A stretch of 64,000 nucleotides of DNA. Origin: the human T2T-CHM13v2.0 reference genome, Homo sapiens. The notes beneath the pieces were generated by a model. The model made no database searches and was not told the DNA's origin. It saw nothing but the letters and a program-made list of their open reading frames with translations. Of the stretch, positions 6,613 through 9,884 are shown piece after piece (the stretch's first letter is position 1; every line of letters starts with the position of its first letter). Made by a program: the position numbers and the translations under genes. The stretch lies in the NCBI RefSeq assembly GCF_009914755.1, contig NC_060926.1; one strand, 5' to 3'.

Positions 6613-7440
6613 TTGAAATTGGGAAATATGTATTTGGTCTTCAACTCCATATTCGGACATACAACTCCTATAATTCTTAGAAACTCCAAAGTGACGTCTG
6701 TTTGAGTGCTAATGGGATGACTGTTGGCTGGCAGCCCCTAGGTAACTTCAAGATGGGGCTGGTCACTTGAAAGACCAAGGCATGATTAGTGAGTTGGGAC
6801 TTCCAGCCCCACCCTCCAACCACTGGGGCTGAAGGTTAAGTTGATCACCAGTGGCCAATGGTTTAATCAATCCTGTCTATGCACTGAAGCCTCTATAAAA
6901 ACCCAAAGGACAGAGTTTGGAGAGCTTTCAGATAGCTGAACACGTGGAGGTTCTGGGAGGGTGGTACGCTCGAGAGGGTGTGGAACGTCTACGTCTCTTC
7001 CTACACACCTCACCCTGTGTGTGTCTTTATCTGTATGCTTTGCAGTATTATTTATAATAAACCAGCTAATGTGTTTCTCTGAGTTTTGTGAGCCACTTTA
7101 GCAAATTAATTGAACTCAAGGAGGGAGTATGGGAAACTCATCTTCAAGCAGGTGAGTCAGAAGTTCCAGAGTCTGGGGCTTGTGACTGGTGTCTGAAGAA
7201 GGGGGGCAGTCTTGGGGACTGAGCCTTCAACCTGTGGATTCTGATGTTATCTCCAGGTAGATAGTATTGGAATTGAATTACAGAACACCCAGCTAGTGTC
7301 CACTGCAGAATTGATTGCTTTTTTGTTGTTGGGAGAAACCCTCCACACATTTGGTCCCAGAAGTCTTCTGTGTTGATTGCTGTGGTGGTGGTGTGTAAGC
7401 AGAGGAAAAAACAATTAGAGCATTGTTTTTAGGTATATTA
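6613..7440 (+). mobile_element. Solo ERV LTR, MER21-family, sense to ACTR3
   Basis: Recognised MER21 blocks (aaagaccaaggcatgattag; cagatagctgaacacgtggagg; atctccaggtagatagt); U3-R-U5 order CCAAT 6855, TATAAAA 6894, AATAAA 7056. Confidence 0.8.
6855..6900 (+). promoter_or_regulatory. LTR core promoter: CCAAT (6855-6859) and TATAAAA (6894-6900); CRE-like TGACGTC at 6692, E-box CACGTG at 6941
   Basis: Motifs read directly; activity not shown. Confidence 0.4.
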
Positions 7441-8076
7441 TTCTCTTGTCCTTTGTAGGAGTTCTAGAATTGGAAATACTGTTTTGTCCTGTTTTAGGGT
7501 ATTGTTGGGTATAGCAGCTTGAATTGTGGTGGTGACAAATAAGAATAAAAGTAGAGAGATTAATATGTGGGATCAGACCAAGGAATAGTTAGGTATTAAT
7601 AATTCACTATTGGTTAGATAGTAGTAGGCTTTTAGGTAGAGTGTTTTGGTTCAACAGTTTCAGACTGCTTTGTATTAAACAAGTTTTTATTTTGGTATAG
7701 TAGACTAGTCATTTCCATTTGTCCACTGGTAAGGTATTAAACTATACTGGATGGGAAGGAGAGCATCTAATGTAGTAGGAGCAGTGTTAATAGTGGCTTG
7801 GTGGCATGAAATGAGTTGGAGTGTTGAGAAATTGTCAGCTGTTTTTATGGTTAGGGAGTTTAATGTGGTGTCAGGGCAGCTGGGAGAGGTCAGAGGCCAA
7901 ATAATAAAGGGACTTTTTTGTATACATTACAAGGAAATTTTTTGTTTTTCGTTTTTTTTTTTTAAAACGTGAACAGTGGGGAACTGTTGAAGAGGTTAGT
8001 CAGTAGACCAATATCACTTTTTTCAACAGTTTATGGTTTCCCCTTATTTTTAATGATTTACTCTTATTTGGCACAC

Positions 8077-8331
8077 TTTTTTTTTTTTTTTTTTGAGACG
8101 AAGTCTTGCTTTATCACCCAGGCTGGAATACAGTGGCATGATATTGCCTCACTGCAACCTCTGTCTCACAGGTTCAGGCAATTCTCCTGCCTCACTCTCC
8201 TGAGTAGCTGGGATTACAGGCGCCCACCACCACACCCTGCTAATTTTTGTATTTTAATAGAGATGGGGTTTCACCATGTTGGTCAGGCTGGTCTCGAATT
8301 CCTCACCTCAAGTGATCCTCTCTCCTCGGCC
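8077..8331 (-). mobile_element. AluS, 5'-truncated
   Basis: TSD ttggcacact at 8068 and 8332. Confidence 0.9.
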
Positions 8332-8389
8332 TTGGCACACTCAGTTCTTGAACTTAATTTGGAGGCTAAAACATTCCCCAAAGATATTG

Positions 8390-8832
8390 TTTATTTATTT
8401 GTTTATTTTTTGAGACAGAGTCTCACTCTGTCTCCCAGGCTGGAGTGCAGTGGTGTGATCTCGGCTCACTGCAACCTCCGCCTCCTAAGTTCAAGCGATT
8501 CTCTTGCCTCAGCCTCCCAAGTAGCTGGTATTACAGGTGCCCACCACCATGCCTGGCTAATTTTGTATTTTTAGTAGAGTTGGGGGTTTCACCATGTTGG
8601 TTAGGCTGGTCTCGAACTCCTGTCCTGGTCCCGTAATCCACCTGCCTCAGCCTCCCAAAGTGCTGGGATTATAGGCATGAGCCACTGCTCCCAGCCTAAT
8701 TTCTATAGTTTTAGTAGCGAGGGTGTTTCACCGTGTTGGTCAGGCTGGTCTTGAACTCCTGACCTCAGGTGATCCACCCACCTCAGCTTCCCAAAGTGCT
8801 AGTATTACAGGTGTGAGCCACCACGTCAGGCC
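8390..8832 (-). mobile_element. AluS plus an additional left monomer (trimer-like)
   Basis: Dimer 8390-8696 directly followed by another left arm 8697-8832. Confidence 0.85.
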
Positions 8833-9828
8833 CCCAGCAGATTTTTTTTTTTCATTTTATCTTAGAAAAAAGATTCTTCAGATATTAGAGTCCAAGAATG
8901 TCACAGCAATTACCTGTCTGCTATTTATCAGTGAGTTTGAATATGGAATAATATAAAATGTTACATTCTCTTTAAAGCCTGCTTATAGTTAATAGCTTTT
9001 CCCACATAGCTAAAAAATGCCCCACTATCTCCTAAGTAGCCCCCACATACTGCTTGTCAGAGCTCAGCTTTTATAATTTCTAATCCTTATTTATGTTGTT
9101 ATTTTGTTAGAAGAATGTAGGCCAAGTCTACTGTGACAAAACATTAAATCTTATATTTATTTTTGAATAGTAATTAATTTGAATGGTATGAAACAATGTA
9201 CAATGAAAACAAATCTCCTTCTCATTTCTGTTCATCATGCCCCAGTTCCCTTTTTTGGAGACAACCAAAATTATTCTTGTGTAGTCTTCCAGAGATACGT
9301 TGTGCCTATACAAAATATTTCATATGTTTTTACTCCTCCCCATTAGTTTTATACAGATATACCATACTTGATACATTGTTCTGTATCTTTGTTCAGTAAG
9401 TAATATATTTTGGGAATTGTTTCCTATCACTATACTAAGAGCTTCCTCATTCTATTTTTTGTAGCTGCATAATATTCCATAGTATAAACTTAGCATATTT
9501 CAATAGTTTCCAGTTTGATTGATATTTAGGTTATTTCCAGTCTTTTGCTGTTAGAAGCAAGATTGTAGCTAATGACCTTGATTGTGTATTATTTCACATA
9601 TATTCCTGAAGGATCAATTTCTTGAAGTGGAATTTCTTTTCAGAAGCTCTGTGCATTTATAATTTTGATAGAATTGTGAAAGTAGGGGTTAAATGAAGTG
9701 AAACTATGGAATTTGGTATATTATTTACCTACGATGGAATCTCACTTCATAACAAATGAAATTCTAAGAAAGAAATGTATAATTGCTAAAATATTAGTGA
9801 AATCTTTATAAATTATTTTGTTTTGCAG

Positions 9829-9884
9829 GTATACAAAACTAGGATATGCTGGAAATACAGAACCACAGTTTATCATCCCTTCCT
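9829..9884 (+). CDS. ACTR3: ACTR3 exon 2 (56 nt): (G)YTKLGYAGNTEPQFIIPS
   Basis: ttttgcag| acceptor, |gtaagt donor; translation matches ARP3 residues 15-34. Confidence 0.97.

What the first reader, a model, noticed from the sequence alone, without database searches (positions are those of the whole stretch)
6613..9884. Intronic MER21 LTR may encode an alternative first exon for an N-myristoylatable ARP3 lacking the phosphate-1 loop
Seen: the sense LTR has CCAAT (6855), TATAAAA (6894), a strong-Kozak ATG at 7129 (AgtATGG) and a perfect donor CAG|GTGAGT at 7151/7152. ATG GGA AAC TCA TCT TCA AGC AG joins the first G of exon 2 (9829) in frame, giving MGNSSSSR-YTKLGYAGNTEPQF... (411 aa). The two upstream ATGs (7035, 7069) have weak context and stop at 7082 and 7101. 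Established: Gly2-Asn3-x-x-Ser6 is a favoured N-myristoyltransferase motif; MER21-family LTRs serve as placental promoters (CYP19A1, HSD17B1); the replaced residues 1-15 include the DCGTG phosphate-1 ATP-binding loop. Inference: a tissue-restricted, membrane-tethered and nucleotide-impaired ARP3 that could modulate Arp2/3. As I recall the MER21 consensus, the TATA, ATG and donor are copy-specific gains. Frame match alone has a 1-in-3 chance, and the LTR AATAAA (7056) lies before the donor.
Basis: partly seen in the sequence, partly recalled or inferred. Interest (0 to 1): 0.8.

Follow-up and report, generated by a model that had tools for sequence, protein, structure and literature searches.

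The report
Silent-looking LTR with chance ARP3-compatible exon
An old retroviral LTR in intron 1 of the human ARP3 gene really does carry a promoter box, a start codon and a perfect splice donor in frame with exon 2, but nothing I could reach shows that it is ever used, and copies of the same LTR elsewhere show how these motifs arise by ordinary decay.

Summary
The 23-nt ATG-to-donor stretch joins ACTR3 exon 2 in frame. The element (about 6612-7437) is an old solo LTR. The genome search scored 40 of 3,182 first-look candidates, at 71-76% identity. It shares core promoter, R start and U5 end with the CYP19A1 exon I.1 LTR, which the literature calls MER21A. Its U3 does not match, so it is a sister subfamily. 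In 30 aligned copies (this one plus its 29 best matches), CCAAT, a CATAAA box and AATAAA are common family traits. The ATG occurs in 10 of 30, and 9 of those 10 begin Met-Gly. Only the consensus donor is unique at that position, yet 4 of 30 copies carry an equally donor-like site somewhere in R-U5. CpG content and local divergence are ordinary. RefSeq lists no exon here. ACTR3 is absent from the held supplement text of five TE-transcript papers, a weak negative. The LTR poly(A) signal lies 95 nt before the donor. Verdict: observation confirmed, use untested. Most likely it is an ordinary silent LTR, and a functional myristoylated ARP3 is very unlikely.

The parts
6612..7437 (+). Solo LTR of a MER21-related family, in the same orientation as ACTR3, inside intron 1
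   Evidence: 42 matches from 40 scored of 3,182 first-look candidates, at 71-76% identity, covering query positions 12-813. The 5' end comes from the alignment. No target-site duplication is recognisable. Homology to the CYP19A1 exon I.1 LTR is shown.
6612..6880 (+). U3 part of the LTR, not shared with the CYP19A1 (MER21A) copy
   Evidence: blastn of 6611-6900 against the CYP19A1 locus gives nothing better than E = 0.92; the CYP19A1-type U3 has its own family (40 scored of 2,420 candidates), and none of the listed places coincides with those.
6855..6859 (+). CCAAT box
   Evidence: Read. Present at the homologous place in 16 of 30 copies.
6894..6900 (+). TATAAAA box. At this place most copies carry CATAAA, one base different from this copy's box
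   Evidence: Read. TATAAA is in 3 of 30 copies and CATAAA in 18 of 30. The CYP19A1 copy has CATAAAA at the aligned place, 84 nt before the exon I.1 primer.
7056..7061 (+). LTR poly(A) signal AATAAA, followed by a GT/T-rich stretch at 7070-7092
   Evidence: Read. AATAAA is in 17 of 30 copies. It lies 95 nt before the donor.
7129..7151 (+). Candidate coding stretch ATG GGA AAC TCA TCT TCA AGC AG (MGNSSSS plus two bases of Arg)
   Evidence: Read. An ATG is at this place in 10 of 30 copies. 9 of those 10 begin MG. 6 of the 10 have a stop by codon 6.
7149..7157 (+). Consensus splice donor CAG|GTGAGT
   Evidence: Read. It scores 12.5, the best in intron 1. At the homologous place it is the only copy of 30 scoring 8 or more.
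7046..7151 (+). Possible cryptic cassette exon (106 nt), if the acceptor-like ctttg cag| at 7043-7045 pairs with the same donor
   Evidence: the 20 nt upstream of the CAG are 0.70 pyrimidine (range of the real ACTR3 acceptors: 0.55-0.90). 106 nt shifts the frame. By my own reading of the frame from the exon 1 phase, a TGA falls at 7080-7082.
9829..9884 (+). ACTR3 exon 2, the constitutive acceptor for any upstream donor
   Evidence: Hub table, and the sequence read.

Best explanation
The element is an ordinary, old solo LTR of a MER21-related subfamily, sitting in sense orientation in ACTR3 intron 1. It inherited its core promoter motifs (CCAAT, an A-rich TATA-like box) and its poly(A) signal from the family.

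The ATG-Gly start sits where 7 of 30 copies read CGT and 10 read ATG, so I infer that a CpG decayed to CA there. The open 7-codon frame and the consensus donor arose by a few further substitutions in this copy. The match to the phase of exon 2 is coincidence.

The LTR is most likely transcriptionally silent in normal tissues, and no stable ARP3 isoform is made from it.

Shown: the motifs, the homology, the family frequencies, and the absence from RefSeq. Inferred: the silence, and the lack of a protein.
For: - Family frequencies in 30 aligned copies (this copy plus its 29 best matches; the family has at least 3,182 candidates): CCAAT 16, CATAAA 18, TATAAA 3, AATAAA 17, ATG at the site 10.
- 9 of the 10 ATG copies begin MG, so Gly2 comes with the ATG.
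- 4 of 30 copies have a donor-like site scoring 10 or more somewhere in R-U5, and 2 of 30 score 12 or more.
- 14 of 64 donor-like sites in intron 1 have an in-phase ATG ORF.
- CpG observed/expected is 0.17, inside the family range of 0.05-0.23.
- Mean identity to the other copies is 0.66 for 7122-7160 against 0.69 for the whole LTR.
- No exon is annotated at 6612-7437 in the RefSeq table supplied by the hub.
- There are 0 papers with ACTR3 plus MER21 and 0 papers with the peptide string.
- ACTR3 has 0 occurrences in the held supplements of PMC12587700, PMC10113160, PMC11909889, PMC12963367 and PMC10760525.
- The U3 is not shared with the placentally active CYP19A1 copy.
Against: - The donor is a perfect 9-mer consensus. 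It is the best-scoring site in 22.8 kb of intron 1 and beats all 11 real ACTR3 donors.
- The TATA box is one base closer to consensus than in most copies, and the ATG has A at -3 and G at +4.
- This copy lacks the in-frame stop by codon 6 that 6 of the 10 ATG-bearing copies have.
- A related LTR is a proven promoter with an intra-LTR donor at CYP19A1 (Frost et al. 2023, Supp. Table S2).
- Absence from the paper supplements is weak. The held files were partial: one held only 4,398 characters, and one holds no MER21 term at all.
- I could not look at any expression data.
Confidence: 0.7

Rival explanations
1. In some hypomethylated context (placenta, testis, early embryo, tumour, DNMT- or HDAC-inhibited cells) the LTR fires about 30 nt after the TATA box, near 6925. 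The transcript reads through the LTR poly(A) signal, uses the 7151 donor and splices to exon 2. The result is a rare mRNA whose first good-context ATG is in frame with ARP3. U1 snRNP binding to the strong donor shortly after the AATAAA could suppress cleavage, as described for the HIV-1 5' LTR (recalled, not looked up).
For: - All the needed motifs are present and in the right order.
- The donor is the strongest in the intron.
- The two upstream ATGs have poor context and short ORFs.
- At CYP19A1 the aligned box is CATAAAA. Exon I.1 lies just downstream, and its donor lies inside the LTR.
- MER21A copies drive six genes in trophoblast (Frost et al. Supp. Table S2).
Against: - There is no annotated exon (hub table), and ACTR3 is not in any catalogue I could open.
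- The U3, where tissue-specific elements normally sit (general knowledge), is unrelated to the CYP19A1 U3.
- MER21B and MER21C have 0 occurrences in the supplementary file (file 3) of Frost et al. that holds the trophoblast family table.
- The canonical AATAAA and GT-rich element lie before the donor. In CYP19A1 the likely donor precedes that segment, and the segment itself is missing.
- CpG content gives no hint of a germline-unmethylated promoter.
Confidence: 0.1
2. The donor is used, if at all, from the normal ACTR3 pre-mRNA. It would pair with the acceptor-like site at 7045 to include a 106-nt cryptic exon (7046-7151). That exon shifts the frame, brings a stop at 7080-7082, and sends the transcript to nonsense-mediated decay. 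This is splicing noise or a poison exon. It is not a new protein.
For: -: cag| at 7043-7045 has a 0.70 pyrimidine tract upstream, within the range of the real ACTR3 acceptors (0.55-0.90).
- The length of 106 nt is typical for an exon.
- The donor is the strongest in the intron.
- ACTR3 is broadly and highly expressed (general knowledge), so the intron is abundantly transcribed.
Against: - The exon is not annotated in RefSeq (hub table).
- No branch point or enhancer analysis was done, and the acceptor score is only a pyrimidine count.
- The would-be exon contains an AATAAA.
Confidence: 0.12
3. The consensus U1 site persists because it protects ACTR3. A sense LTR brings a working poly(A) signal into intron 1, and U1 snRNP bound 95 nt downstream suppresses premature cleavage (telescripting). 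No splicing from the site would be needed.
For: - The AATAAA is intact and followed by a GT/T-rich stretch.
- The donor is unique to this copy at that position.
- That sense LTRs in introns are generally selected against because of their poly(A) signals, and that U1 suppresses nearby sites, is recalled from memory and was not looked up here.
Against: - There is no test of selection. Local divergence is average.
- 4 of 30 copies have comparably strong donor-like sites in R-U5 at various places. I did not check whether those copies lie in genes, so drift suffices as an explanation.
Confidence: 0.06

Closest known systems
CYP19A1 placental promoter I.1 (MER21A LTR)
   Same: - Homologous core promoter and R start: window 6885-6950 against the CYP19A1 locus, 78% over 67 nt.
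- Homologous U5 end: window 7217-7410, 74% over 195 nt.
- The A-rich box is at the aligned place, and exon I.1 starts just downstream.
- The donor lies inside the LTR and splices to a distant exon 2.
- Frost et al. 2023, Supp. Table S2, name this LTR MER21A.
   Different: - The U3 shows no detectable similarity.
- The CYP19A1 copy lacks the roughly 180-nt segment that in ACTR3 holds the AATAAA, the ATG and the donor.
- Its likely donor (CGC|GTATGT, my reading) lies in R, before that segment.
- Exon I.1 is non-coding (passage of PMC6235026) and its use is proven. The ACTR3 stretch would change the protein and its use is unproven.
LTR-derived alternative first exons or promoters in general (TE exaptation)
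   Same: A sense LTR upstream of a constitutive acceptor, with a TATA-like box and a downstream donor. This is the architecture reviewed in PMC5134097. I saw only its search listing and the start of its abstract.
   Different: Those cases are defined by observed transcripts. Here there is only sequence potential.
Arp3 nucleotide-pocket mutants (yeast arp3-D11A, arp3-G302Y; Martin et al. 2005, PMC2171590)
   Same: The hypothetical isoform would lack D11 and T14, residues of the first phosphate-binding loop. arp3-D11A has a 15-fold higher Kd for etheno-ATP, and its nucleation equals a 20-fold dilution of wild-type complex (passages read).
   Different: Those are point mutants of an otherwise intact fold. 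The isoform would also lose the whole first strand (residues about 7-11) and gain seven unrelated residues (the eighth, Arg, also draws on exon 2), so misfolding is a real possibility (inference).

Membership tests
MER21 LTR family (ERVL-type solo LTR) | Sequence homology to a copy that the literature names MER21A (the CYP19A1 exon I.1 LTR) | tested here: met
   two colinear blocks, E = 3e-33 and 2e-9. Frost et al. Supp. Table S2 lists chr15_51338476_51338990_MER21A for CYP19A1.
MER21A subfamily (the placentally active one) | Shared U3 region upstream of the TATA-like box | tested here: not met
   no hit better than E = 0.92 for 6611-6900; the CYP19A1-type U3 defines its own set of copies, and none of the listed places coincides with those.
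MER21 LTR family | Match to the curated Dfam or Repbase consensus and RepeatMasker annotation, which would give the subfamily name A, B or C | not testable with these tools
   No repeat library is on hand. I built no consensus.
Solo LTR in general | High copy number, TG...CA termini, ordered CCAAT/TATA then AATAAA (U3-R-U5), target-site duplication | tested here: inconclusive
   Copy number and motif order are met. The family starts with TGTGA, while this copy reads TTTGA at about 6612. The 3' end is degraded. No duplication is recognisable.
LTR-derived alternative first exon of a host gene | Observed transcripts that start in the LTR and splice to the host exon | not testable with these tools
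   No expression data are available. RefSeq has no such exon (hub table). ACTR3 has 0 occurrences in the held supplements of five papers.
N-myristoylated proteins | Gly at position 2 with a small uncharged residue at 3, Ser/Thr-type residue at 6 and no Pro at 7 (PROSITE-type pattern, recalled) | tested here: met
   MGNSSSSR, read, fits by inspection. No predictor was run. 9 of the 10 family copies with the ATG also start MG.
N-myristoylated proteins | The protein is made and carries the lipid | not testable with these tools
   This needs Ribo-seq or proteomics.

The most novel reading that the evidence does not exclude
A tissue-restricted (for example trophoblast, germline or tumour) LTR-initiated ACTR3 mRNA is translated from ATG 7129 into a 411-aa ARP3 whose first 15 residues are replaced by MGNSSSSR. 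The protein would be co-translationally myristoylated. It would lack D11, T14 and the first phosphate loop, and would still enter the Arp2/3 complex as a membrane-tethered, nucleotide-blind subunit that damps or relocates branched-actin nucleation.
Probability: 0.02. Interest if true: 0.75.

Novelty: already known. Interest (0 to 1): 0.2.

Why it matters
If the exon were used and translated, it would be a primate-specific, retrovirus-derived way to make a lipid-anchored, ATP-blind subunit of a core actin nucleator. That would interest both cytoskeleton and transposon biologists.

As it stands, the value is cautionary. Within one LTR family, a promoter box, a Met-Gly start and strong donors recur by decay. 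In-frame "alternative first exons" in sense intronic LTRs are therefore expected by chance and need transcript evidence.

A secondary point is that the proven CYP19A1 exaptation lacks the LTR poly(A) segment, which this copy retains.

Tried and rejected
- Literature searches gave nothing: ACTR3 + MER21, 0 papers. ACTR3 with TE, LTR or alternative-promoter terms, no listed paper contained ACTR3. The peptide string, 0 papers.
- Supplements were searched for ACTR3 in five papers, all with 0 occurrences.
  - The held text was tiny for PMC12587700, at 4,398 characters.
  - A follow-up search of PMC12963367 by approximate hg38 coordinates and by 'MER21' also found 0. The TSS list is therefore not in the held text, and that negative says nothing.
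- Rfam at gathering scores over 5500-10500 gave 0 matches.
- ORFs of 40 aa or more over 6500-7500: only one, a 68-aa minus-strand ORF at 7144-7350, which I take as chance.
- I looked for signs of selection or of an unmethylated promoter in CpG content and local divergence. Both are ordinary.
- I tried to define a target-site duplication and exact termini. The ends are too decayed.
- Not attempted:
  - Any consensus of the LTR.
  - Primate orthologues, because no collection of them is held.
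Full report
**1. What is in the sequence**

| Feature | Position |
|---|---|
| CCAAT | 6855-6859 |
| TATAAAA | 6894-6900 |
| AATAAA | 7056-7061 |
| Upstream ATG, poor context | 7035, stop at 7080-7082 |
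| Upstream ATG, poor context | 7069, stop at 7099-7101 |
| ATG with A at -3 and G at +4 | 7129 |
| Donor CAG\|GTGAGT | last exonic base 7151 |
| Constitutive exon 2 acceptor | 9828\|9829 |

No other ATG lies between about 6925 and 7129.

The 23 nt from the ATG to the donor leave two bases of a codon. G9829 completes Arg, and the frame continues YTKLGYAGNTEPQFIIPSC.

I fetched the rest of intron 1 and exon 1 from the same genome. Exon 1 starts its coding part at window -13064. It encodes MAGRLPACVVDCGT plus two bases of Gly15 and ends at -13021, in the same phase. The length arithmetic (411 aa) is right, using the hub's coding parts.

**2. What the element is**

Searching the window's own genome with 6600-7420 gave 42 matches. 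These came from 40 scored of 3,182 first-look candidates, at 71-76% identity and covering query positions 12-813.

Alignment of this copy with its 29 best matches places the start near 6612. The family starts TGTGA, while this copy reads TTTGA. The end is near 7437. No target-site duplication is recognisable.

No repeat library is available, so I tested the family name against a literature standard.
- The CYP19A1 exon I.1 forward primer from Table 1 of PMC6235026 hits once in the genome, at C15:49,146,292-311 on the minus strand.
- Frost et al. 2023 (PMC10113160, Supp. Table S2, seen) label the LTR there MER21A.
- The ACTR3 element aligns to that locus in two colinear blocks. One covers the core promoter and R start (67 nt, 78%). 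The other covers the U5 end (195 nt, 74%).
- Its U3 (6611-6900) finds nothing better than E = 0.92.
- The CYP19A1-type LTR, U3 included, has its own family (40 scored of 2,420 candidates), including two places at C17:43.40 Mb. None of the listed places coincides with those.

So "MER21" is right at family level. This copy belongs to a sister subfamily whose U3 differs from the placentally active MER21A. I cannot say whether it is MER21B or MER21C.

**3. Which motifs are inherited and which are copy-specific**

The counts below are over 30 aligned copies, this one included. The 29 others are the best matches to this copy, so the sample leans towards its likeness.

| Motif at the homologous place | Copies of 30 |
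|---|---|
| CCAAT | 16 |
| CATAAA | 18 |
| TATAAA | 3 |
| AATAAA | 17 |
| ATG | 10 |
| GTG in place of the ATG | 10 |
| CGTA or TGTA in place of the ATG | 7 |

- Seven of the 30 copies read CGT at the place of the ATG. I infer from this that the ATG arose by decay of a CpG to CA.
- 9 of the 10 ATG copies start Met-Gly. Gly2, the key residue for myristoylation, therefore comes for free with the ATG.
- 6 of the 10 have a stop by codon 6. Four stay open to the donor position, this copy among them.
- At the donor position, only this copy scores 8 or more on my rough matrix. Three others reach the level of the weakest real ACTR3 donor.

For the ATG it is not true.

**4. Is it more than chance?**

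The donor matrix uses frequencies I recalled, so the scores are only relative.
- The site scores 12.5. That is the highest among all GT sites on the + strand of intron 1 (22.8 kb) and above all 11 real ACTR3 donors, which score 5.4-11.4.
- The accompanying features are cheap. 14 of the 64 intronic sites that score at least as high as the weakest real donor also have an in-phase ATG ORF.
- 4 of 30 family copies have a site scoring 10 or more somewhere in R-U5, and 2 of 30 score 12 or more.
- With thousands of copies in the genome, a handful of sense intronic copies with an in-frame ATG and a strong donor are expected without selection (inference).
- CpG observed/expected is 0.17 against a family range of 0.05-0.23. 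Identity to the other copies is 0.66 around the ATG and donor against 0.69 overall. Neither suggests constraint or a germline-unmethylated promoter.

**5. Comparison with the working precedent**

In the CYP19A1 copy the aligned box is CATAAAA. The exon I.1 primer lies 84 nt downstream of it. By my reading, the likely exon I.1 donor is CGC|GTATGT, about 130 nt after the box.

That copy lacks the roughly 180-nt segment that aligns to window 7033-7215. In ACTR3 this segment carries the AATAAA, the ATG and the donor. I saw no AATAAA or ATTAAA between the exon I.1 start and the LTR end there.

So the precedent shows that MER21-type core promoters and intra-LTR donors can work. In the proven case, however, the LTR poly(A) signal is absent. 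In ACTR3 an intact AATAAA with a GT/T-rich stretch (7070-7092) precedes the donor by 95 nt. U1 binding at the strong donor might suppress it. That idea is recalled from work on the HIV-1 5' LTR, and I did not look it up.

**6. Evidence on use**

I found none.
- RefSeq (hub table) has no exon in 6612-7437.
- Full-text searches gave no paper linking ACTR3 to MER21, and no paper with the peptide. In the two broader searches, no listed paper contained ACTR3.
- ACTR3 does not occur in the held supplement text of five papers:
  - a human-development TE-transcript study (PMC12587700, only 4,398 characters held);
  - the trophoblast ERV study (PMC10113160, 4 files searched, one PDF unreadable);
  - a long-read lung-cancer TE-chimera study (PMC11909889);
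  - a RAMPAGE TE-TSS atlas (PMC12963367);
  - a long-read CAGE study of cryptic promoters (PMC10760525).

- The RAMPAGE supplement also lacks any "MER21" string, so its TSS list was not in the held text.

These are weak negatives. Junction, CAGE and Ribo-seq data, and primate genomes, were out of reach.

**7. The protein, if made**

Residues 1-15 would be replaced by MGNSSSSR.

By inspection this N-terminus fits the PROSITE-type myristoylation pattern, which I recalled. No predictor was run.

The lost residues include D11 and T14 of the first phosphate loop. In yeast, arp3-D11A alone raises the Kd for etheno-ATP 15-fold. It lowers nucleation to the level of a 20-fold dilution of wild-type complex and mimics nucleotide-free Arp3 (passages of PMC2171590).

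Loss of the whole first strand makes misfolding likely (inference). I could not fold the spliced protein with the tools.

**8. Other readings**

- The same donor could pair with an acceptor-like site at 7045, which has a pyrimidine fraction of 0.70 against 0.55-0.90 for real acceptors. That would give a 106-nt frameshifting cassette with a stop at 7080-7082. It would be a noise or poison exon made from the abundant ACTR3 pre-mRNA.
- Alternatively, the U1 site might merely suppress the LTR poly(A) signal.
- Both readings are untested.
- Nothing else is in the region. There are no Rfam matches over 5500-10500. The only ORF of 40 aa or more is a 68-aa minus-strand ORF that I take as chance.

**9. 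Verdict**

| Reading | Odds |
|---|---|
| Ordinary silent LTR | about 0.7 |
| Rare LTR-initiated transcript | about 0.1 |
| Cryptic cassette exon | about 0.12 |
| U1-mediated poly(A) suppression | about 0.06 |
| Functional myristoylated ARP3 | about 0.02 |

Interest is low unless transcript data say otherwise.

Noticed in passing
L031 (G000:C15:49144792-49147811), minus strand; aligned to window 7033-7215: The CYP19A1 exon I.1 LTR lacks the roughly 180-nt R/U5 segment that carries the poly(A) signal in sister copies. Other CYP19A1-type copies have about 250-670 bp between the two matched blocks, where CYP19A1 has 64 bp. The proven promoter exaptation has thus lost the LTR's own terminator.
   Followed up: partly
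L009, L011, L015, L016, L022, L024 (C9:41.55 Mb, C9:79.41 Mb, C12:37.52 Mb, C9:43.29 Mb, C17:22.99 Mb, C19:39.44 Mb): Six copies share the same 5' truncation (query position 144-149), the same Alu-like left flank and near-identical right flanks. They also share variant motifs (a TACAAA or similar variant for the TATA-like box in all six, AATCAAAC for the poly(A) signal in five). They look like one LTR copied by segmental duplication, and do not look like independent insertions.
   Followed up: no
window 7144-7350, minus strand: A 68-aa ATG ORF runs antisense through the U5 part of the LTR. It has no support and I take it as chance.
   Followed up: no
window 6262-6292 and 7940-7965, 8075-8095: Long T runs flank the LTR region. 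The run at about 8075-8095, followed by gagacg, looks like the tail end of an antisense Alu, matching the masked block 8382-8700 nearby.
   Followed up: no
G000:C17:43402300-43403559 and C17:43409234-43409730: Two CYP19A1-type (MER21A-like) LTR copies lie about 6 kb apart on chromosome 17. From recall, this is near where HSD17B1 should lie. That would fit the reported MER21A at that gene, but I did not check the gene position.
   Followed up: no
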